Assembly: GCA_964016885.1 (NCBI GenBank)
Contig: OZ024742.1
Coordinates: 310,806,001-310,870,000 of the forward strand
Direction: 5' to 3'
Length of the DNA: 64,000 nucleotides
Source of the DNA: Eledone cirrhosa
Lineage: Eukaryota
The notes below the pieces were generated by a model. It searched no databases and was not told the origin of the DNA. It saw only the letters and a list, made by a program, of their open reading frames with translations. This document shows, piece by piece, positions 983 to 59,910 of the stretch; the first letter of the stretch is position 1, and each line of letters opens with the position of its first letter. Both the position numbers and the translations under genes were made by a program.

Positions 983-2152
983 CTAAGGCGGGTAAAATTC
1001 CCGAGATCCATGGACGAGTTCTCTCCAGCGGTCTCTGTCCCTCATTATCGCTGCCATATCCTGCATCTCCAACAGACCAGTGTCTGTCCTTAGGGCATCA
1101 ACATATGTTAACCTTGGTCTTCCTCTTCTAGTGTGTCCATGTAGGGGCTCCCAAAGGAGCACTGAGTGCAATGTCAACTCTGGATGTCGGTGAGCATGTC
1201 CAGCCAACCTCAGTCTCCTCTGTGTCACTTTTGAGCTGACTTTTGGGATGCTCCCATACAGCTCTGAGTTTTTCATCCTCAGTGTATACTGATTAATGTT
1301 CAGAGCCATCCTCAGCATTCTCGTGTAGCACCCATCCACCATCTGAGTGAGTCTCTTGGTCAGTGTCCAAGTCTCAGACCCATACAGCAGCACAGACTCC
1401 ACTACAGCAATGAAGAGGCGGATTTTCAGGTCTCTACGAAGGTCCGACTTCCACACCGATCTCAAACTGTGACACGCCGCCCAGGCCTTGCTCTTCCTCC
1501 CAACCACATCATCTTCCGTATTCCCAATCTTTGCTCCCAAATACAGGAAGTCCTCAACCAATTCCAGCGGCTTCCCGCCTACATTAGTGATCCCCTCTGG
1601 CTTCTCAACATTCTCCACCAGATATTTTGTTTTAGTCTCATTCATTCTCAGCCCCACACTCATCGACACAGTCTCAACCTCCCGCATCAAATCCTCTGCC
1701 TCCTTCACTGTATTTGTCACCAAAACTATGTCGTCGGCAAATTCAGCATCCGATACCTTTTTCGCCCCAACTCTCCTGCTCTGAGCCGGTGCTACAGTAA
1801 AGCCAGTGTCCTGGTATTTCTCCAGTGCAAGGCGCATACAATAGTCCACTACGATGATAAAAAGGTAGGGAGCCAATGTATCTCCCTGGAGCACTCCAGC
1901 CAGTATCTCAAAGAACTCTGTCATCCCATCAGGTGTAATGACTTGGGCTTTGGTGTTGGTGTAGAGCAGTGATATCAGGTCCACTATCCTCTTGGGGATT
2001 CCATAAGCCTGTAAGATCTTCATCAGGCAGTAACGGTCCACAGAATCAAAGGTCTTCCTAAAGTCAATGAAAACCATGACCGCAGGAAGGCACTTTGCTC
2101 TAGCTCCCTCTAATATCCTCCTCAGCATCAGGATGTGACTGGTGGTTGATCT
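983..2152 (-). mobile_element. RTE-clade non-LTR retrotransposon, 5'-truncated reverse transcriptase ORF (open to stop at 983)
   Basis: RT motifs FIDFRKTFDSV, GVLQGDTLAPYLF, EFADD, FLYLG, LLYGSETWTLT, RGRPR C-terminus. The N-terminal IYIY of the listed ORF is just the (TA)n at 2153-2211. Confidence 0.92.
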
Positions 2153-2153
2153 A

Positions 2154-2210
<57 letters not shown>

Positions 2211-2215
<5 letters not shown>

Positions 2216-3506
2216 TGTGCGGGTGATATTTGTTCGCAAGATTACTGTCTAGGAAAAAGTAACACAGTAGTTTTATTTTTTAAGATATACAGGGTGTGGA
2301 CGATATCTGTTCGCAATTTTCAACTGCTAATTTTATGCAAATATTTTTTACTTCCGTTGTCACTCTTGTCTTCATAAAAACACTGACTATATTTCCATTA
2401 TCTATTTTCAGAATAACTGATTATGAATAATTTTGAACCTTCAGATTTGTGGAAGAGACACGGAGTTCTTCTTGGAATCCGCGCCGGGAGGACAAATAAG
2501 GAAATTTCAGACTTTCTCAGCGTCAACAGGAGAATAGTGGAAAAGGTCAGAAAGGAATTGGAAGATTCAGGATTCGACTATGAAGCAACACCAGAGAGGA
2601 AAACATGATCGACGATCTGACGCCTTCAGAACACCTGAGTCGTCGCTGAAGTTCAGGATATCATCAACAATGAACCTAGCAAGTCGATGCGTGCCATTGC
2701 AAGGGAGAAAGGCGTGGATGAAAAGCTCATTAGGCTGGTGGTACATGAATACAATCGCTACGTTTTATACAAGATGAGGAAAGGACAATTTCTGTCAAAG
2801 GCGATGCAAGAAAAGCGACTGAAGCACGCAAAGAAGCTGATCAACAAGTTGAAACACCCACTGGAGCCAGACATGCTGTGGTTTTTCTCCGACGAGAAAA
2901 ACTTCTGCTAAGACCAGAAGAACAACTCCCTGAACAACAGGTGGCTCGCTGTCTCATCCAAAGATGTGTCCAGAGTCATGCAGACAAAGTTTCCAGCGAC
3001 AACATTGGTCTTAAGTGTCGTCAGCAGTGAATGTGACGTCATGCCACCTTACTTCTTCCCTGAGCGCCTTAAGCTGAACACCAATGGCTACATCCGCGTT
3101 CTGAGCGAGGTAGTAAAGCCCTGGATCGACTAGGTAGCTGCAGGTAGGCCGTACGTGTGGCAGCAAGACTCAGCGCCCTGCCATACCAGCTGAAAGACCC
3201 AAGCCTGGCAGTCAGAGAACTTCGTCGACCACACTTCACCTGACATCTGGCCTCCCAGATCGCCTGACTGCAACCCCCTCGACTTCTTTGTGTGGGGCGC
3301 AGTGGAATGAGACACCAACAGATCTAGCTGCAATACGAAATACGATCTGAAGGCCAGGAGCACAAGTGCCTTTAAGTCGGGGGACAGTGACGAAGGCCTG
3401 TAGCCGGTTCCGAGGCCGCCTTGAGGCCGTCATCAAAGCCAATGACGGGTTTATCGAGTGAGATCGAAAGAACAAGTCATGAAGACAAACTGACCCAAGT
3501 TTGATA

Positions 3507-4606: not shown

Positions 4607-4750
4607 TACATGTTATGTCTGACAAAACTAAAAAGCTATACACCATGACTCCTGAAACTTACAACTCTTTCCTTCTTAAGGAACTTAATAAAAACTATAA
4701 AAAAAACTATACCCTCCAGTGTAAACGTACTTAACCGAAAAGCCCAGGCT

Positions 4751-6774
4751 TTGGTTAAGGACTTGCATCTGGATAGATTTACCGACCCTTATGTACCAAC
4801 AACCCTAAGGTTCTCTCTCAAGGATCATAAGCCAAACTTTATAGAGAACCCATCTATTAGACTTATAAGCCCAACCACACCCGACCTGAGTCGTATCAGT
4901 AAGAACATCCTTCATAGGATAATCCCTGGGCTACGGGATGATATCACCTACAAGTTGTGGTCCAACAGCGGCCAAGTCATTAGATGGTTCTCCAATCTAA
5001 GGTCCAAGCAATCTATGAGGTTCATTCAATTTGACATCGACAGCTATTACGCTTCAATAACCCCGGAACTGCTCAACAAAGCATTAACCCTAGCCAGCAC
5101 CAACTCGGACATAACCAATAATGAGATTAACATCATACTTATGGCTAGGAAGACCATCATTGAATTCAACGGAGCACTCTGGACTAGAAAAGATAGAACA
5201 GACCACTTTGACATCACGATGGGCTCAAGTGACTCTGCGCAAATCACCGATTTAGTTGGAATTTACCTATTACATAACATCAGAGCCGAAATCCAACCCT
5301 TGCAAGGCGGAATATACAGGGATGACGCCCTATTTGCAGTCCACAATTGCACTAATCGGGGCATTGATTTACTAAAAAAACAATTACATAGATTCTTTAA
5401 AAATAACGGTCTCTCTATCACCATCGAGCCGAACCATAAAGTAGTAAACTTCCTAGACGTCACCCCGGACCTCAACAATAACCTATATTACCCTTACCAT
5501 AAACCAGGTGAAATACTCACATATATTAGCCCACACTCTAACCATCCACCGGCAGTCATCAGAGCAGTAATCAAATCTATCTCGTATAGGATCTCCATGC
5601 TATCAGCAAATGAGGAGATATTTATAAACCATGCACAATATTATAATAAGGCTCTTTCTGAATCTGGTTATGAACAATCCATTTACTACATACCTAAATG
5701 CCATAACACAGCAATTCACCATAATAAACTTAACACTAGAACTAGAAATACCTTAGCATATAGCCAGATTCGCCGGAATTTTAGCAGTAACAGCACCTAT
5801 ACAGGGAAGTTTAAAGGCGGCAGCGGCCTGCTCCCCACTCCAAGTAGCAAACTAAAAATCAATCCTAGAATAGAAATGAGAAATGGGATGACAAATAACA
5901 CATCCCCAGGTAATAATAACCCTAGGAAGGCCCCTACCAACTCCACTAGAACCCCTAGAAGGAATAGACCAAGAAATATCACCTGGCTTAACCCACCATT
6001 CTCATCTAATCTAGCCACTAATATCCCTAAACGCTTCTTCTCTATCCTATCTAAACATTTCCACCCAACCATAGATATTACAAACTCTTTAATAAAAATA
6101 ACATTAAAATCTCATAAAATAACATTAAAATCAACACCTAACCTAGCTAGCCACATCGCATTCAGTAATCACCATAAACTAAGACAGTATAACTCCCACA
6201 CCGCGGTACCACCACCCCTATCAAATACACCACGCCACTACACCAATAATTACTCTAGTAGCACACCTCCCCCATCTAATCCTTCTAGCACTGACCAACC
6301 GCTTAGGTTAAACTACCCTACTCTCACTAATCGCAGAAGCAACTGCAACTGCCGTTACCCTAATGCATGCCCATTAAATGGACACTGCCTGACACCCAAC
6401 ATAGTCTATAGGTGTACGGTTAAAACTGCTTCGAATACCAGCTCTTATATCGGGTCTACCTTAACCCTTTTAAGGTACGCTATAACGCGCACTCTTTTTC
6501 TTTCCGAGACCCTAGCAACAGATGTTCGACATCTCTAGCTAGGCTCATTAAAAACCTTAAATTAAGCAACATTGAACACTCACTAAAATGGGATATCGTA
6601 GCTAGGGCCCAACCGTTCAATCGACGAAGAAAATCTTGTGATCTCTGTATTACCGAAGCATATTACATAACTCTATCACGACCTCTACCGATTAACGATA
6701 GAACGGAGGTAACAATTAGCTGTCAACATCGAAGGGCTAATTCCTTCGCCAATAGAATATTTGACCCAACATAG
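4751..6774 (+). pseudogene. PLE RT-GIY-YIG polyprotein, frameshifted (near 4700, about 6070-6120 and about 6470)
   Basis: ORF 4751-6538 plus continuation in another frame (FKVRYNAHSFSF...LKWDIVARAQPF...CDLCITEA...CQHRR). Confidence 0.85.
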
Positions 6775-7383: not shown

Positions 7384-7412
<29 letters not shown>

Positions 7413-7418
<6 letters not shown>

Positions 7419-8030
7419 GAAAAGTATAGAAATTATTGTAGCAAGAAGCCAACAGTATTCCATAATATATAAGTGACTATAGCGTCAAAATGGAAAAATA
7501 GTTAACGTAAGATGTGGGAAAATAATTCAAACTCAATTCAAAAAGAATTAGCATATAGATTCATCCACAGAATTTGGTGAATTCCAAGGAAAAATCAATA
7601 GAGCCTTAAGTCAGAATAAAATAAAGTTTAAAATACTCATCCTTCAATTTGGAAAAACTACAAATGCTCTGTATAGTCTTAAAGACTATTTCACGAAACT
7701 TTCAGTGGGGATGATCACGGTTTGAGCTCAAAGACACGATAACTAAAGTACCACTGTTTATAATATGCCACAAAGGGAATTTAAAAGCAGGTTAGTTCAA
7801 CATCATGCGTAATTATGAAGAAAAACGCACATGTAGAGACAGGGCTAGTGACGTCAGAATGAGACGAATGTCTGTTTACATGAAACAACAGTCAAAAACA
7901 TTCCGAAAATAACTCTACAATATAAGTAGTTCAGCAAAAGCAATATTATCGAGGTTTATTTTTTAAGAAGACCGGGATTAGTCAGAAAAAAATTTTAAGC
8001 ACTCTAGGAAAGAAATCTGAGTATAAATAT
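7413..8030 (-). mobile_element. Diverged single monomer of the 630-bp HHR repeat family (5' half of core deleted)
   Basis: Reverse complement matches the 31180-33370 unit end to end (GAAAtagtctttaagactaTAcagagc, ctgacgtcactagccc, ctagagtgctt). Confidence 0.85.
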
Positions 8031-8041
8031 ACACAGCAATA

Positions 8042-8581: not shown

Positions 8582-8617
<36 letters not shown>

Positions 8618-8619
<2 letters not shown>

Positions 8620-8798
8620 CGAATGAAATGTGGTAAGGGACCAGATGGACCATAAGCACCAAAGTACTCAATACTTAGAGTAGTAGAGTGGGTAATAGGA
8701 ACGAGTAGGACCTCGACGGCTGAGCTCACGCCGTTTCGACGCTGACCAGAATTAGCCGTCGAAACGGCTTGACCTCAGCCGTCGGGGTCCTACTCGTT

Positions 8799-8803
<5 letters not shown>
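8618..8803 (-). mobile_element. Family A fold-back element (HHR 3' half, inverted arm, tail)
   Basis: Homologous to 29467-29904; tail 8618-8694, inverted arm ends gttcctat at 8803 against (TA)n. Confidence 0.9.
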
Positions 8804-8868
<65 letters not shown>

Positions 8869-9148
8869 TGTGTATGTATGTGTGTGTGTGTGAGTATTGC
8901 TGTGTGTGCTTAATACATATTTCATTTATTATCTAATCAATTTAAACGTCCGTGTAGAGTTGGTAATATTCATTATAAATGAAAGACGGGTTAGATAATC
9001 GTCACAACTTAGTTACCTTTAATCATTCCTGCCAAATTAAGAAACAAAAAAACTAGATTGAAAAAGAGAAAGAGAAATAAATAAGGCGACAAAAGGGACA
9101 AAATATGACAAAGGTGAAAAGGAGCACACACACACACACACACATATG

Positions 9149-9665: not shown

Positions 9666-11026
9666 TTTCTTTTATTTGCCACTAGGGCATCAAAAGTGGG
9701 ACAAGTACAATGGGGGGAGTTTACACAAAAAGGCGTCCTCAATAAGGAGGCAATAACAAAATATAAAAATAAAATAAGATATAACAAAAAATAAAATTTT
9801 TAACAAAATCCTCAATAGAGAGGAGGCGCCTTGGGGGGTCGCACACACCCCCGAAAAAAGTGTGCAACCCTTCTCCTCAGGAGCACAGAGAAGGGGTGCT
9901 CCCTTGGTCTTTCATCTTCCTCACCTATAGTCTGATGTAGAGTGAAGGCCCATTCACACGGGCCATTCTCGCCACTTTCACCCATCTTTCATAGAAACGG
10001 CTGGGGTGCAGCACCTTTCTCTCCATCCTGATCCTTCTTCCGAAATGATAACGGAAGAAACGGACCAGTTGTTGGCCAGAGAGAAAGGTGCCTGACCTCA
10101 GTCCTTTCAGACGCGTCCACCATACAACCTCTTTCGCCATGGCTATTACGCACAGAAACACCGCCTCTGCTTCATCTTTGAAGGGGGGAGGCGGCTTGAT
10201 CATTACAATAGACTCGGTGGTCAACCGGATCGGTCCCACCCTTGACAGCAGTTGTTCGACATAGCCCCACAGATCGGCTACGCCCGAGCAGTGTACCAAT
10301 GCGTGTGCAACGGTTTCCTCGTCGCACACGCATCTGGGACAGATCTTTTTGGCGGGGTCCCTACCCGGGCGCCCGTGTCTGTAGAGCCTTTCTCGGACGG
10401 GTAAAGCCCCTCGGTAGCACTGCCAGGCCAGGGACTTCTGGAAGTTGTCCATAGGTCCCGGGCCGAATGTCCTACCGAACAGGCTGGCCAGTTCGTCCTC
10501 CTCCATGTCTAGGGCTTCTCCGAGGGCGTCGTCGCACCTGCTGCGTACAAGCCCTCTATAGAATGTTGCGGTGGAGTCTCCACTGATAACCGGATCCGCC
10601 TGCCAGAGGGCGGTGAGCGCCTGAGCACACGCAGTGTGCCAGGCGCCCAGTTTTCTCGGTCTTTGCTTGACCCAGGATTGCAGCTCGGTGAGTGAGACGA
10701 GTCTGGGAAAGGTTCGTCTCACAAACGAGGCCCACACCGGTTGTCCGGTGAGGAATACGTAGAGGTGCCGTAGCCTTAATGCGTGTTTACGCATCATTAG
10801 CCACGGCATCCCCAGCCCTCCTTTCGAAGGGTGTTGACAGCAGATGGATCTCCTCACCATAGGAGCCCGCTTCTTCCAAAGGAATTGGAAGAGCGCGCGC
10901 TCCATCTTGGTGAGGGTTTCCCTTGGGCAGGGCACTACGGTCAGGCGGTAGTAGATGACGGACGCTATGTAGGTGTTCGCCACCTCCGCCCGACCTTTCA
11001 GGGATAGTTTGCAACTGGCCCACTTC
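9666..11026 (-). mobile_element. Tx1/L1-clade LINE 3' fragment (ORF2 C-terminus with CCHC knuckle, 3' UTR)
   Basis: LSLKGRAEVAN, FQFLW, GGLG, CPRC...ETVAHALVHC; stop at 9925; 3' end gtggcaaataaaagaaat. Confidence 0.88.
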
Positions 11027-11077
<51 letters not shown>

Positions 11078-11090
11078 TAGATATAGATAT

Positions 11091-11393
<303 letters not shown>

Positions 11394-11408
11394 ATATATA
11401 TATATAAG

Positions 11409-11561
<153 letters not shown>

Positions 11562-11567
11562 GTATAC

Positions 11568-11601
<34 letters not shown>

Positions 11602-11755
11602 TGTTATACTTTGGGAGGGTCATGTTGCCAATAAGAAACACACGCACCAGTTGCTTTCACTTCAATTTATTATATATTTATAAATTTACAAATCTACAAA
11701 TTTATAAATTTCTGGTTGGTTGGTTGGTTCCACAACCAGATAGTTGTTTATATAT

Positions 11756-11800
11756 AGTCATAGTCCTTTCGTCACACACTCTGTGACCTCTTCAGTGACT
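11756..11800 (-). ncRNA. Minimal type I hammerhead ribozyme motif
   Basis: Minus strand agtca-CTGAAGA-g-gtcaca gagtg tgtgac-GAAA-ggac-TA-tgact. Confidence 0.65.
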
Positions 11801-12056
11801 GGGGATTCCTTTCTTTGTTTCTGTGCCTTTCCTTTCTTCTGTCCTACGCCATTTTGTTTCTGTGTGTGTGTGGTGTGCTCAGTTTGCGCATGCGCCACAT
11901 CCGGGTGTCGTTATTTGTTTTTATCGTTTCCGCTGAACCGGTGCGTACAATGACTCACGTTCTATGCAAATTAGTCTGCCCACTACTGATTTTCATAGAA
12001 AAAGCATATAACGATATGTGCTTTTACAATTCTCCATAGAAGCCGTAAGGTGGGTA

Positions 12057-12101
12057 AATATTGCTGATGAGATGTAATAACATCGAAACTAGTCCAATAT
12101 T
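12057..12101 (+). ncRNA. Minimal type I hammerhead ribozyme (GUC site, palindromic stem III)
   Basis: aatattg-CTGATGA-gatg taataa catc-GAAA-ctag-TC-caatatt. Confidence 0.85.
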
Positions 12102-12527
12102 CCTGTCTGGCTCTCTGGAGAATAGAGGAAGTGTGTTTCCTTGAAAACTCGTATGACTTTAAAACCCGGTTCGTCTGTTTGTTTACATACAGACTAGCTG
12201 GACACTCACTGTAAAGTGTCTAGTGAAAAACTCGGTACATGTACATATGTATACATGTGTGTATTTATATGCATACTAGTACTTCCGTATACATATGTAA
12301 ATGTACACTTTAACTTAATTGTTTAAGCGTCAGTCATACAAAAGTGAGTTAGAAGCGAAACGAAATTTAATTTCGTTTCGTTATTTGTTTTTATCGTTAC
12401 CGCTGAACCGGTGCGTACAATGACTCACGTTCTATGCAAATTAGTCTGCCCACTACTGATTTTCATAGAAAAAGCATATAACGATATGTGCTTTTACAAT
12501 TCTCCAGAGGAGCCGGAAGATGGGTAT

Positions 12528-12570
12528 ATATTGCTGATGAGATGTAATAACATCGAAACTAGTCCAATAT
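12528..12570 (+). ncRNA. Minimal type I hammerhead ribozyme, second unit
   Basis: atattg-CTGATGA-gatgtaataacatc-GAAA-ctag-TC-caatat. Confidence 0.85.
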
Positions 12571-12864
12571 TCCTGTCTGGCTCTCTGGAGAATAGAGGAA
12601 GTGTGTTTCCTTGAAAACTCGTATGATTTTAAAACCCGGTTCGTCTGTTTGTTTACATACAGACTAGCTGGACACTCACTGTAAAGTGTCTAGTGAAAAA
12701 CTCGGTACATGTACATATGTATACATGTGTGTATTTATATGCATACTAGTACTTCCGTATACATATGTAGATGTACACTTTAACTTAATTGTTTAAGCGT
12801 CAGTCATACAAAAGTGAGTTAGAAGCGAAACGAAATTTAATTTCGTTTCGTTATTTGTTTTTAT

Positions 12865-54294: not shown

Positions 54295-54372
<78 letters not shown>

Positions 54373-54578
54373 AACGAAGGAAATGTGGTAAGGAACCAGA
54401 TGGACCATAACGCACCAAAGTACTCAATACTTAGGGTAGTAGAGTGGGTAATAGGAACGAGTAGGACCCCGACGGCTGAGCACAAGCCGTTTCGACGGCT
54501 AATTCAGGACTAAATTTAGTCCAGAATTAGCCTTCGAAATGGCTTGAGCTCAGCCGTGGGGGTCCTACTCGTTCCTAT
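54373..54578 (-). mobile_element. Family A fold-back copy (64-bp arms, no spacer)
   Basis: Centre 54514/54515; tail 54373-54450. Confidence 0.9.
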
Positions 54579-56314: not shown

Positions 56315-56399
<85 letters not shown>

Positions 56400-56437
56400 A
56401 ATCTACTTACATATATATGTATGTATGTCGGTTTATA

Positions 56438-58176
56438 TATGTCAGGTCACCAGTTGGTGCTACTGGTAACATGTATCCCAGTACAACCTGTCTCATTGTC
56501 GGGTCGTTGGCGACTAAACTGGCAACCCACCAAGGTTTCTTGGTGAGGAGGGTGACTTTGGACATCCTGCAGGACTAAAAACAAAACCTGTCAAAGGACA
56601 AAGGAGCTCTTAAGAGTCAATGGCCATCCAAAATCACCGGGAGAGATAACCCCTTAGCTTTTGTCAAGGCAGAATTCTAGGAGAAGGAAAACTCTGATAT
56701 ATCACCTGCAACCCTGATGGTATCCAATGATGTTGACTTGTTATTCTTTCTGGTAAATATCATCTTGGTTAAGAGAGTGGGACTGGCTTTGTGCAGTGCC
56801 TTTGCTCACTATAAAAGCTTCACGGCACAGGCATTGATTTATATCTGGAGATCTCTCTGCACTTGTCGTTACATGGTACCATAGGCCCAGCACTATGTGT
56901 CAATAATTGTTACAAGTGTAGTGTTTGTACCAGAGTGTTTAAGTCGCTGGCTGGACTAAAAAGTCACACTCGTTCAGCGCATCGGTAGGAGTTGTCCTAC
57001 ATGGATATAAAGTAGTGGCCGTAGTCGAAAACGAGTTGGCAGCCACCATGTATATATATATGTGTGTATGTATGTATGTATGTATGTATGTATGTATGTA
57101 TGTATGTATGTATGTATGTATGTATGTATGTATGTGTGTATGTATATGTCAGGTCACCAGTTGGTGCTACTGGTAACATGTATCCCAGTACAACCTGTCT
57201 CATGGTCGGGTCGTTGGCGACTAAACTGGCAACCCCACCAAGGTTTCTTGGTGAGGAGGGTGACTTTGGACATCCTGCAGGACTAAAAACAAAACCTGTC
57301 AAAGGGCAAAGGAGCTCTTAAGAGTCAATGGCCATCCAAAATCACTGGGAGAGATGTCCCCTTAGCCTTTGTCAAGGCAGAATTCTAGGAGAAGGAAAAC
57401 TCTGATATAACACCTGCAACCCTGATGGTATCCAATGATGTTGACTTGTTCTTCTTTTTGGTAAATATCATCTTGGTTAAGAGAGTGGGACTGGCTTTGT
57501 GCAGTGCCTTAATAGCTTAACAGCACAGGCATTGCTTTATATCTGGAGATCTCTCTGCACTTGCCGTCACATGGTACCATGGGCCCAGCACTGTGTCAAT
57601 AATTGTCACAAGTGTAGTTCTTTGTACCAGAGTTTTCAAGTCGCTGGCTGGACTAAAAATTCACACTCGTTCAGCGCATCGGTAGGGGTTCTCCTACATG
57701 GATATAAAGTAGTGGCCGTACTCGAAAACGAGTTGGCAGCCACCATGTATGTATATATATATATCCGGGAGAGATGACCCCTTAGCCTTTGTCAAGGCAG
57801 AATTCTAGGAGAAGGAAAATTCTGATATAACACCTGCAACCCTGATGGTATCCAATGATGTTGACTTGTTCTTCTTTTTAGTAAATATCATCTAGGCTAA
57901 GAGAGTCGGACTGGCTCTGTGCAGTGCCTTTGCTCACTATAAAAGCTTCACGGCAAAGGCTTTGCTTTGTATCTGGAGATCTCTCTGCACTTATCGTTAC
58001 ATGGTGCCATGGGTCCAGCACTATGTGTCAATAATTGTCACAGGTGTAATGTTTGTACCAGAGTTTTTAAGTCGCTGGCTGGACTAAAAAGTCACACTTG
58101 TTTAGCCATCGGTACGGGTTCTCCTACATGGATATAAAATAGTGGCCGTACTCGAAAACGAGTTGGCAGCCACCAT
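56438..58176 (+). repeat. Tandem element of about 610 bp, 2 full copies and 1 partial, separated by microsatellite
   Basis: 56438-57050, 57145-57747, 57766-58176; contains ctaggagaaggaaaactctga, reminiscent of RTE LINE 5' UTRs. Confidence 0.8.
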
Positions 58177-58312
58177 ATATATATATATATATTTATAAAT
58201 CTACATACATATATATATATATATAAATCTACATACATATATACATATATACATTCATACACTTACGTATGTATATAGCTATGCATTTATATTTAAGTGT
58301 GTAAGGATATAT

Positions 58313-58525: not shown

Positions 58526-59910
58526 ATTTCTTTATTAGCCACAAGGGCACAAAAGAAGGGGACAAATACAAATGGGGAGTTTAGATACAGGTATATGAAA
58601 ATAAACTATTAATAAAATAACAAATAACAATTGAAATCCCCAAAAGGGGGGAGGTGTTACACAGGGGTTGTACACATCCCGAAAAAATGTACAACCCTCA
58701 TCCAGGCGCACCAAGAGTGAGTACTCCCTTCCTCTTTTTCCTCAACCTACAGGCTTATATAGAGAGAAGGCCCAACCACTCGGGCCATCTTTGCCACATT
58801 CCCCCACCTTTTATAAAATTTGCTGGGGTACAGCACCTCTCTCTCCATCCTGATTCTTCTTCCAAAATGATATTTGAAAAAACGCATCAGTTGCTCGCCG
58901 GAGAGAAAGGTGTCTGACCTCAGCCCTTTTAACCTCGTCCACCATATAACCTCTTTCACCATAGCCATAACACATAGGAAAACCGCCTCTCCCTCGTTTT
59001 TGAAGGAGGGTGGCGGTTTGATCATGACAATGGACTCGGTGGTCAACTGGATTGATCCCACCCGCGACAATAGTCGTTCTACATAGCCCCACAGGTCGGT
59101 AACGCCCGGGCAGTGTACAAATGCGTGCGCGACGGTTTCCTCGTCGCGCACGCATCTCGCACAGATCTTTTTCGAAGGGTCCCTGCCCGGGCGCCCGTGT
59201 CTGTAGAGCTTGTCTCTAACTGGTAGAGCTCCTCGGTAGCACTGTCAGGCCAAGGACTTTTGGAAGTTGTCCATTGGTCCCGGGCGGAAGGTCCTGCCGA
59301 ACATACTGGCCAGTTCGTCCTCCTTTACGCCCAGAGTTTCTCCGAGCGCGTCGTCGCACTTGCTGCGGACCAACCCTCTATAGAATGTCGAAGTGGAGTC
59401 TCCACTGATCGTCGGGTCCGTTTGCCAGAGGACTGTGAGCGCCTGAGCACATTCGATGTGCTAGTCGCCCATTTTCATCGGTCTTTGCTTGACCCAGGAC
59501 TGCAGCTCGGTCAGCGAGACGAGTCGTGGGAAGGCTCGCCTCACGAACGGGGCCCACACCGGTTGTGCGGTGAGGAATACGTGGAGGTACCGCAGCCTGA
59601 GCACATGTTTGCGCATCGTCGGCCACGGCAACCCCAGCCCTCCGTTTGAAGGGTGTTGGCAGCAGATGGATCTTCTCACCAAAGGAGCCCGTTTCTTCCA
59701 AAGGAATTGGAAGAGAGCGCGCTCCATTTTGGTGATCGTTTTGGCTGGACAAGACACGACGGTCAAGCGGTAGAAGATGACGGACGCTATAAAAGTGTTC
59801 GCCACCTCCGCTCGACCTTTCAAGGATAGTTTGCACTCGGCCCACTTCTGGGTGAGCGCAAACACCTTGGCCGTCACCTCGTTTCAGTTCTTCTCCACCT
59901 GGAGGTCCGG
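58526..59910 (-). mobile_element. Tx1/L1-clade LINE 3' fragment, paralog of 9666-11026, with stops
   Basis: LSLKGRAEVANTFIASVIFYRLTVV, ETVAHAFVHC; same 3' end gtggctaataaagaaat. Confidence 0.88.

What the first reader, a model, noticed from the sequence alone, without database searches (positions are those of the whole stretch)
11908..12864. 470-bp tandem with minimal hammerheads likely to act as dimers
Seen: two units, each with aatattg-CUGAUGA-gatg/catc-GAAA-ctag-UC-caatatt; stem III is only the palindrome CUAG. Known: minimal PLE-type HHRs with palindromic stem III can cleave as double-hammerhead dimers between tandem copies. Inference: the tandem arrangement is functionally needed to release a 470-nt monomer.
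Basis: partly seen in the sequence, partly recalled or inferred. Interest (0 to 1): 0.7.

Follow-up and report, generated by a model that had tools for sequence, protein, structure and literature searches.

The report
Hammerhead retrozyme dimer beside Penelope end
Two tandem copies of a 470-base non-coding unit each carry a hammerhead ribozyme motif and are likely a "retrozyme", a known kind of small animal jumping element predicted to cut and circularise its own RNA (probably better when two copies pair), here likely in an octopus genome and fused to the end of a Penelope-type retrotransposon that likely moved it.

Summary
Observation confirmed with one correction: a 470-bp tandem (8 differences in 470) carries two intact type I hammerhead cores; 'aatattg' holds only for unit 1. 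The label is wrong. These are not PLE-type minimal hammerheads but canonical metazoan ones (helix I 6 bp plus internal loop, helix II 4 bp plus 6-nt loop, no extra base after A9) with a very short palindromic helix III (ACUAGU). The unit is non-coding and folds strongly (z about -9 to -10). A 71%-identical sister family in the window keeps helix III, loop II and the overall fold. It is a metazoan non-LTR retrozyme, probably from an octopus. Dimer-enhanced cleavage is likely: the monomer core is predicted to misfold, the double hammerhead is about 4-5 kcal/mol cheaper per core, and axolotl motifs behave this way. Strict dimer dependence is untested, and a 30-bp local stem argues against easy swapping. 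New detail: the tandem is fused head-to-head, without TA spacer, to the 3' end of a Neptune/Nematis-type Penelope element, and both 3' ends run into (TA)n. This is a likely footprint of mobilisation by Penelope machinery. New member of a known kind; modest interest.

The parts
11908..12864 (+). Tandem of a 470-bp non-coding unit: two units plus 17 nt; GC 36%
   Evidence: longest ATG ORF inside the unit is 64 aa; no tRNA
12058..12101 (+). Hammerhead 1, type I: helix I 12058-12063/12095-12100, core 12064-12070, helix II 12071-12074/12081-12084 with loop UAAUAA, GAAA 12085-12088, CUAG 12089-12092, predicted cut after C12094, unpaired U12101
12528..12571 (+). Hammerhead 2, same core and helices; predicted cut after C12564
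12095..12564 (+). Predicted 470-nt monomer between the two cut sites; its two ends pair in a helix of about 30 bp (12095-12123 with 12499-12533)
   Evidence: -161.0 kcal/mol linear, z -9.0; -157.1 circular, z -10.0 (60 dinucleotide shuffles each)
12029..12063 (+). 5' arm of the extended helix I in unit 1; carries 5 of the 8 unit differences within 21 nt and pairs 9.4 kcal/mol less stably than the unit 2 arm (12499-12533)
   Evidence: cluster P 5.7e-4 under uniform placement; -26.1 vs -35.5 kcal/mol
11964..11974 (+). 11-nt block ATGCAAATTAG (second copy 12434-12444), identical in the 71%-identical sister family; contains an octamer-like motif (label recalled); candidate promoter or protein site
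12235..12306 (+). Long AU-rich hairpin (second copy 12705-12776), kept in the sister family; source of the spurious miRNA matches
12824..12864 (+). 13-bp hairpin plus U-rich tail (internal copy 12354-12394); the element's 3' end lies at the end of the tail and its 5' end (11908) at the base of the same hairpin
11602..11907 (-). 306-bp 3' end of a Penelope-like element, fused head-to-head to the tandem with no TA spacer; related to the 3' end of the RT/GIY-YIG element at 39293-41664
   Evidence: local alignment score 83 against 33 +/- 5 (max 57) in 300 shuffles; nhmmer E 0.0014
11756..11800 (-). PLE-type minimal hammerhead in the left arm: extra G after A9, helix II 6 bp, helix I 5 bp, core at 11795, predicted cut after 11761
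11275..11601 (.). (TA)n tract joined to the 3' end of the Penelope arm
12862..13495 (.). (TA)n tract joined to the 3' end of the retrozyme tandem
37315..37966 (+). Sister family copy: inverted 5' arm (about 37315-37535, minus) plus one 425-bp unit (37542-37966) with a single hammerhead (core 37725, predicted cut after 37755)
   Evidence: (292 of 413 aligned columns identical; score 174 vs best of 100 shuffles -48)
30614..31135 (+). Second sister family copy with a single hammerhead (core 31024); 97.3% identical to the 37.3-kb copy and preceded by the same upstream element, so probably a local duplication and not an independent insertion

Best explanation
The 470-bp tandem carries two canonical type I hammerhead motifs and is likely a metazoan non-LTR retrozyme whose read-through RNA is predicted to cut itself after 12094 and 12564, probably most efficiently as a double hammerhead, to give a 470-nt monomer that would be circularised and was likely copied into a (TA)n tract by Penelope-type reverse transcriptase and endonuclease. 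Steps: (1) shown: two intact cores, a non-coding unit, a conserved sister family, the head-to-head fusion to a Penelope 3' end and the (TA)n flanks. (2) Predicted: alone, the CUAG of helix III pairs back onto the core CUG and the motif is mostly misfolded; between two copies ACUAGU forms a 6-bp helix that frees both cores. This would allow cutting in multimers and keep the monomeric circle closed. (3) Inferred from coral, mussel and axolotl retrozymes: the 30-bp end-to-end helix holds the 5'-OH and cyclic-phosphate ends together for a host ligase such as RtcB. (4) Inferred: a Neptune/Nematis-type enzyme cut the TA tract, primed one end on a Penelope RNA and the other on the retrozyme RNA at its unpaired U-rich tail, copied two rounds and stopped at the base of the 13-bp hairpin. 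My odds: retrozyme membership 0.85, dimer clearly faster than monomer 0.65, monomer essentially inactive 0.35, Penelope mobilisation 0.65.
For: Cores intact and beyond chance. Geometry aligns position by position with the Rfam HH9 consensus: 6-bp helix I, internal loop, 4-bp helix II, 6-nt loop II. Monomer z -9 to -10. Sister family at 70.7% identity keeps ACUAGU and UAAUAA unchanged and has two double changes in helix II: 30 of 32 cells paired, against 12-44% when partners are slid; RNAalifold on the two units gives 17 of 79 pairs with changes on both sides, including a long-range helix. Misfold CUG/UAG has probability 0.86-0.95 in the free ensemble and also appears in the sister family. Two cores cost 7.0 kcal/mol as a double hammerhead against 17.5 as two monomers in 12000-12620, and 9.5 against 17.5 in the whole 957 nt. 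When the transcript ends at 12533-12575 the swapped helix I has equilibrium probability above 0.99, and inter-copy helix III reaches 0.38 at 12564. Precedent: axolotl motifs with weak helix III cleave 6% and 22% in 1 h as monomers and much more as dimers; RtcB circularises over 80% against 3% self-ligation (PMC7229834). Penelope link: left arm related to the 3' end of an element with RT motifs, a C-X4-C-X2-C linker and a VY-YIG endonuclease motif; that linker marks Neptune/Nematis and was proposed to mediate microsatellite bias (PMC8557442). The sister family shows the PLE-typical inverted 5' arm, ending at the homologous U-rich tail before (TA)n.
Against: No cleavage or expression data. In the full-length equilibrium ensemble the local stems dominate (probability 0.98-1.0 from length 12600 on) and inter-copy helix III is near 0; a single monomer core (8.4-9.1 kcal/mol) costs about the same as the double fold (7.0-9.5), within model error, and tertiary contacts are not modelled. 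A 30-bp local stem forms about 400 nt before the second copy exists, which may trap the monomer fold (inference). The motif keeps the loops that rescue monomer cleavage in newt (PMC6155905), and the coral monomer cleaves at about 0.8 per min. In Xenopus 8 of 9 tested retrozyme dimers showed no cleavage (preprint 10.64898/2026.07.22.740005). Both sister-family copies hold only one hammerhead and have a U.U at the base of helix II. Covariation rests on two families; the count of doubly changed pairs is not above shuffles (354 of 500). The head-to-head junction is one case and could come from a deletion between two insertions. The sister family's forward arms end at other places (37962; about 31135), so the 3' end is not always fixed.
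Confidence: 0.58

Rival explanations
1. Same retrozyme, but each hammerhead cuts as a monomer, stabilised by the loop I/loop II tertiary contact and the 30-bp helix I; the tandem only supplies two cut sites.
For: Canonical tertiary-loop geometry. Local stems dominate at equilibrium. Newt motifs cleave as monomers given internally looped helix I extensions (PMC6155905 passage). Most invertebrate type I motifs cleave efficiently as monomers (PMC7761336 passage).
Against: Those invertebrate motifs have a stable helix III; this one has one C-G pair closing a 2-nt loop, and its CUAG is predicted to pair with the core. The palindrome is unchanged in the sister family while helices I and II changed.
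Confidence: 0.27
2. The unit is a linear non-autonomous Penelope derivative (a free pseudo-LTR); the hammerhead only trims the RNA 5' end, no circle is made, and the tandem is the usual PLE partial-tandem product or a local duplication of a 'one unit plus 17 nt' insertion.
For: Both ends fall at the same hairpin and U tail, giving a 17-nt terminal repeat. PLE-like inverted arms in the sister family. In Xenopus 24 of 57 retrozyme families match known elements, mostly PLE termini.
Against: No similarity of the unit to either PLE ORF region or its 3' end in the window at nhmmer E up to 1. The hammerhead is canonical and not the pLTR type. The fold closes the two monomer ends and has conserved long-range helices, as expected for a circle. 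One sister copy spans exactly one unit from an internal point, as a circular template would allow.
Confidence: 0.15
3. This locus is a silent, decaying copy: the family may be a retrozyme, but this dimer is not transcribed or no longer cleaves.
For: Unit 1's arm carries clustered, destabilising changes; at 2 of those sites the sister family agrees with unit 2, so unit 1 looks derived. 8 of 9 Xenopus dimers were inactive in vitro. It lies in repeat-rich DNA with no identified promoter.
Against: Both cores and all three helices are unchanged between the copies, and the units differ by only 1.7%. This rival concerns the locus and does not exclude the best explanation for the family.
Confidence: 0.3
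4. The tandem is an assembly artefact, two haplotypes of one unit placed head to tail.
For: 98.3% identity is in a range that alleles could show; long flanking TA tracts are hard to assemble (inference).
Against: The junction between units is a clean continuation of the unit, and the duplicated stretch is exactly the element and not its flanks; a 3.5-copy hammerhead array also occurs in the window.
Confidence: 0.04

Closest known systems
Metazoan non-LTR retrozymes (coral Acropora millepora, mussel Mytilus galloprovincialis, axolotl; PMC7229834, parts 2-4 of 6 read)
   Same: Tandem non-coding repeats with a canonical type I hammerhead per unit, GC below 50%, no LTR, PBS or PPT recognised, strongly self-paired monomer, co-occurrence with PLEs.
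   Different: Unit of 470 bp is just above the 150-450 bp quoted there (inside the 51-972 bp range of the 2026 preprint). Helix III is as weak as in amphibians although the host is likely an invertebrate. Here it is fused to a PLE 3' end inside (TA)n. Expression untested.
Axolotl HHR_Amex1 / newt satellite 2 hammerhead (PMC7229834; PMC6155905 passages)
   Same: Weak helix III with a palindromic loop plus conserved loop I/loop II contacts; poor monomer, efficient dimer cleavage. Newt satellite 2 is reported to use an snRNA-type promoter (PMC2220036 passage), a lead for the conserved octamer-like block.
   Different: HHR_Amex1 is described with one pair and a palindromic tetraloop; here one C-G pair and a 2-nt loop lie beyond A15.1-U16.1. 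Exact sequences could not be compared because the supplement was not readable.
PLE minimal hammerheads (min-HHR; PMC4209133, parts 1-2 of 4 and supplement file 2 parts 1-2 of 3 read)
   Same: Palindromic positions 15.2-16.2; the Adineta vaga PLE motif has the same C-UA-G helix III; dimer action proposed.
   Different: [quoted passage not shown] The tandem's motifs lack these; the minus-strand motif at 11795 has them.
Neptune/Nematis Penelope-like elements (PMC8557442 passages)
   Same: Microsatellite targets, tandem and inverted insertion structures, hammerhead in the 3' repeat; matches the left arm and the element at 39293-41664.
   Different: The 470-bp unit encodes no RT or endonuclease and shows no sequence similarity to the PLE ends in the window.

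Membership tests
Metazoan non-LTR retrozyme | Tandem repeat with a complete type I hammerhead in at least two consecutive units | tested here: met
   criterion from the 2026 preprint
Metazoan non-LTR retrozyme | Canonical hammerhead geometry (helix I 6 bp, helix II 4 bp, loops 1 and 2 able to interact, short palindromic helix III) | tested here: met
   Alignment to Rfam HH9 and pair counts; the tertiary contact itself is inferred, not modelled
Metazoan non-LTR retrozyme | Non-coding, GC below 50%, unit of a few hundred bp | tested here: met
   GC 0.36; longest ATG ORF in the unit 64 aa; 470 bp is slightly above 150-450 and within 51-972
Metazoan non-LTR retrozyme | Highly self-paired monomer | tested here: met
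   z -9.0 linear and -10.0 circular; the minus strand also folds well (z -7.6, -8.8), so this is not strand-specific
Metazoan non-LTR retrozyme | No LTR, PBS or PPT | tested here: inconclusive
   No LTR-like flanks in the self-comparison; no dedicated PBS or PPT search was run
Metazoan non-LTR retrozyme | Self-cleavage in vitro; linear and circular monomer RNA in tissues | not testable with these tools
   needs bench work or transcriptomes
Metazoan non-LTR retrozyme | Many dispersed copies in the genome | tested here: inconclusive
   Only 64 kb available: one locus of this family, two copies of a sister family; no eukaryotic genome collection on hand
PLE min-HHR | [quoted passage not shown] | tested here: not met
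   G10.1 follows A9 directly in both copies; a few listed PLE motifs also lack it
PLE min-HHR | Longer helix II, short helix I, poorly defined loop 1 | tested here: not met
   helix II 4-5 bp, helix I 6 bp extended to about 30 bp
PLE min-HHR | Palindromic positions 15.2-16.2 and loop 3 | tested here: met
   ACUAGU in 4 of 4 family motifs
PLE min-HHR | Located in the pseudo-LTR of an RT/endonuclease element | tested here: not met
   No ORF in the unit and no similarity to PLE ends in the window; met by the separate motif at 11795
Double-hammerhead ribozyme (mode of action) | Unstable helix III that is self-complementary between copies, in tandem on one strand | tested here: met
   (6-bp duplex -4.8 kcal/mol)
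Double-hammerhead ribozyme (mode of action) | Dimer fold preferred over monomer folds | tested here: inconclusive
   Cheaper per core, but equal within error to a single monomer core and absent from the full-length equilibrium
Double-hammerhead ribozyme (mode of action) | Dimer cleaves much faster than monomer | not testable with these tools
   needs kinetics

The most novel reading that the evidence does not exclude
The 1.26-kb insert is a single integration in which a Neptune/Nematis-type Penelope enzyme copied a Penelope RNA onto one end of a cut (TA)n tract and two rounds of a retrozyme circle onto the other: a direct footprint of retrozyme mobilisation by Penelope elements. The retrozyme is an invertebrate one that cleaves only as a double hammerhead, self-blocked as a circle by CUAG pairing to its own core, and is driven by an internal octamer-type promoter.
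Probability: 0.25. Interest if true: 0.58.

Novelty: new member of a known kind. Interest (0 to 1): 0.35.

Why it matters
Tandem type I hammerhead repeats in animals are a described class, so the finding itself is expected. Two points add value. First, which autonomous element moves animal retrozymes is still argued from co-occurrence and pLTR kinship; a review states that these repeats show no motif pointing to their partner (PMC7761336 passage). A retrozyme fused head-to-head to a Penelope 3' end, both ends on (TA)n, points to a genome-wide test: count such chimeras. Second, invertebrate retrozyme hammerheads are reported to be mostly monomer-active; this one has an amphibian-like weak helix III together with canonical loops and a 30-bp closing helix, which makes it a clean substrate for asking how dimer cleavage competes with local folding. 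The searches 'octopus + hammerhead ribozyme' (5 papers, 4 listed) and 'retrozyme + octopus' (3 papers, 2 listed) listed no paper whose title or abstract start concerns cephalopod retrozymes, and a 2026 Octopus vulgaris repeat annotation has 0 occurrences of 'ribozyme' or 'retrozyme' in its main text; the library lacks most subscription papers and Repbase/Dfam were not available.

Tried and rejected
Rfam at gathering thresholds: nothing in the window. The miRNA matches at 12235-12306 and 12705-12776 are far below their gathering scores and reflect an AU-rich hairpin; an E-value scan of 14000-64000 listed 150 of 154 rows, nearly all miRNA families on AT repeats and none a hammerhead. Phage collection blastn of one unit: no match. 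tRNA-derived SINE: no tRNA in the window. Sigma-70 promoter scan: 4 found against 5.0 expected, and irrelevant for an animal; the 'terminator-like' hit is cited only as a hairpin plus U tail. A-to-I editing as the source of the unit differences: 3 of 8 are A/G, 4 are transversions, so not supported. Origin of the unit from a PLE pseudo-LTR in the window: no nhmmer match. PDB search with the endonuclease fragment: nothing meaningful; Pfam found no domain in that fragment or in the ORF at 4649-6538, so the PLE call rests on visible motifs, a weak RVT_1 match (E 1.3e-5, below cut-off) and the literature. A covariance model of the four family motifs found no further copy in the window (one chance-level hit, E 0.25). 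The two sister copies were first taken as independent insertions and then rejected as such.

Full report
Observation. The tandem is real: 11908-12864, period 470, two units plus 17 nt, 8 differences in 470. Each unit holds an intact type I hammerhead core with predicted cuts after C12094 and C12564. A strict descriptor hit 4 places in the window, none in 100 block-shuffled windows and 0 of 20,000 shuffles of the unit. Rfam HH9 matches both copies end to end at E about 3-4e-6, under its gathering score.

What kind of hammerhead. PMC4209133 (parts 1-2 of 4 read) separates canonical metazoan motifs (helix I 6 bp, helix II 4 bp, interacting loops, helix III of 1-2 bp with a 2-4 nt palindromic loop) from PLE min-HHRs (longer helix II, short helix I, poorly defined loop 1, an extra base between 9 and 10.1). 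The tandem's motifs are canonical: G10.1 follows A9, helix II is 4 bp with loop UAAUAA, helix I is 6 bp followed by an unpaired U opposite a UAA or UAU bulge, as in the HH9 consensus. Helix I then continues to about 30 bp. Helix III is one C-G pair around UA, inside A15.1-U16.1. A true min-HHR lies next door on the minus strand (core 11795).

The unit. It is non-coding (longest ATG ORF 64 aa; no tRNA), 36% GC, and the 470-nt stretch between the cut sites folds at z -9.0 (linear) and -10.0 (circular) against 60 dinucleotide shuffles, with its two ends paired; the opposite strand folds nearly as well. nhmmer finds a sister family at 37.3-38.0 kb and 30.6-31.2 kb (E about 5e-14). Its unit is 425 bp, colinear, 292 of 413 aligned columns identical. 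It keeps ACUAGU, UAAUAA and an 11-nt block with an octamer-like motif (label recalled) unchanged, changes the triplet to GUA, and has two double changes and a U.U in helix II. RNAalifold on the two units gives 17 of 79 pairs changed on both sides; with two sequences this is a lead, and the count of doubly changed pairs in the hammerhead is not above shuffles (354 of 500). The two sister copies are 97.3% identical and share their upstream neighbour, so they count as one insertion; each has a single hammerhead. These features meet the sequence-level definition of a metazoan non-LTR retrozyme (PMC7229834, parts 2-4 of 6; preprint 10.64898/2026.07.22.740005, parts 1-3 of 5). The host is likely an octopus: all named hits of a nearby RT fragment are Octopus vulgaris proteins, 63-83% identical over parts of the query; the other hits, including the top one, are unnamed.

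Dimer or monomer. For: helix III cannot form a proper hairpin; in the free ensemble its UAG pairs with the core CUG at probability 0.86-0.95, also in the sister family. The double hammerhead is a nested fold. Two cores cost 7.0 kcal/mol that way against 17.5 as two monomers in 12000-12620, and 9.5 against 17.5 in the whole tandem. While the transcript ends between 12533 and 12575, the swapped helix I is favoured above 0.99 at equilibrium, because unit 1's arm is 9.4 kcal/mol weaker, and inter-copy helix III reaches 0.38. Axolotl motifs with weak helix III cleave 6% and 22% in an hour as monomers and much better as dimers, whereas invertebrate motifs with a stable helix III work as monomers (PMC7761336 passage). 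Against: one monomer core costs 8.4-9.1 kcal/mol, about the same as the double fold; at full length the local stems hold at 0.98-1.0; these are equilibrium figures without tertiary contacts or kinetics; a 30-bp stem formed early may trap the local fold (inference); newt motifs cleave as monomers with looped helix I extensions (PMC6155905 passage); 8 of 9 Xenopus dimers did not cleave at all. Tandem layout alone proves nothing: the 630-bp array at 31180-33381 has a 7-bp helix III and folds as an active monomer. I put dimer enhancement at 0.65 and strict dependence at 0.35.

Surroundings. The tandem is the right arm of a 1.26-kb insert between two (TA)n tracts (11275-11601, 12862-13495). The left arm, 11602-11907 on the minus strand, carries the min-HHR and ends at the TA tract with a terminal block nearly identical to that of the element at 39293-41664; the local alignment scores 83 against 33 +/- 5 in 300 shuffles. 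That element has RT motifs, a C-X4-C-X2-C linker and a VY-YIG endonuclease motif, the Neptune/Nematis pattern, for which microsatellite bias and tandem or inverted insertions are described (PMC8557442 passages); I ran no phylogeny. The two arms meet 5' to 5' at 11905-11908 with no TA spacer. The tandem's 3' end lies at the end of a hairpin plus U tail, and the inverted arm of the sister family ends at the homologous spot; the 630-bp array and its 82%-identical relative at 7.4-8.0 kb likewise end at one shared spot. The sister family's forward arms end elsewhere, one of them at a TTATAT match to the target. The simplest reading is priming by a cut TA tract on unpaired U/A-rich parts of the RNA, by Penelope enzymes, with two different RNAs used at the two ends. 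A later deletion between two separate insertions is not excluded.

Unexplained. Five of the 8 unit differences fall within 21 nt of unit 1's arm (P 5.7e-4 under uniform placement); at two of them the sister family sides with unit 2. A template switch between variant RNAs, an error burst in the long helix or a two-variant master are all open. The promoter is unknown: a review says retrozymes seem to lack promoters, newt satellite 2 is reported to have an snRNA-type one (PMC2220036 passage; the original paper was seen only as a title), and the invariant 11-nt block, whose pairing partner varies between families, is a candidate.

Verdict. Observation confirmed, interpretation partly supported. 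New member of a known kind. No cephalopod retrozyme paper surfaced, within the limits of that library. Interest 0.35; 0.58 if the chimeric-insertion and strict-dimer reading holds (probability about 0.25).

Noticed in passing
window 31180-33381 (+): 630-bp tandem of about 3.5 copies between TA tracts, three type I hammerheads (cores 31789, 32419, 33049) with a 7-bp helix III and long helix II; folds as an active monomer. TRF missed it (period above 500). A second retrozyme-like family; the third copy has helix II mismatches.
   Followed up: partly
window 7387-8031 (-): 82%-identical relative of the 630-bp unit, ending at the same spot before (TA)n; no intact core found by my descriptors.
   Followed up: partly
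window 17856-18188 and 24940-25253: Two related (73%) palindromic elements, each with a pair of hammerhead-like motifs on opposite strands and an AU-rich, (near-)palindromic helix III; typical of inverted PLE ends.
   Followed up: no
window 39293-41664 (+): Broken Penelope-like element (RT, C-X4-C-X2-C linker, VY-YIG endonuclease motif; stops and a frame change) with a weak min-HHR at 41421 and a 3' end on (TA)n; named relatives are Octopus vulgaris proteins.
   Followed up: partly
window 4649-6538 (+): 629-aa ORF with RT-like motifs and a cysteine block before a VY-YIG motif, read as a second Penelope-like element; no Pfam match, no hammerhead found by my descriptors.
   Followed up: no
window 38273-38745: 94% palindrome between a TA tract and unique DNA, with two hammerhead-like motifs resembling the left-arm min-HHR but reading UAAA in place of GAAA on both arms.
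   Followed up: no
window 8582-8884, 29771-29929, 36882-37015, 38062-38277, 41753-41967, 54337-54578: Short repeated family with an internal palindrome and one fixed end on (TA)n in at least six places; no Rfam family at gathering score.
   Followed up: no
window 31135-31161, 28846-28976, 28209-28340: The 30.6-kb sister copy switches at about 31135 to a different 27-nt end that is also the end of a repeat at 28846-28976; another apparent chimera of two elements before (TA)n.
   Followed up: no
window 56341-58192: Tandem of a 600-700-bp unit with a truncated third copy (TRF period 420), separated by short TA/TATG runs; no hammerhead found.
   Followed up: no
window 983-2248 (-), 9925-11112 (-), 58593-59848: LINE fragments: an RVT_1 ORF (E 3.4e-19) and two 82%-identical zf-RVT-bearing pieces.
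   Followed up: no
window 11885-11907: Palindromic TGCGCATGCGC next to the junction, partly shared with the PLE at 41283-41300, and a 12-nt near-palindrome at the junction itself; might be a bidirectional promoter site able to fire into the tandem (speculative).
   Followed up: no
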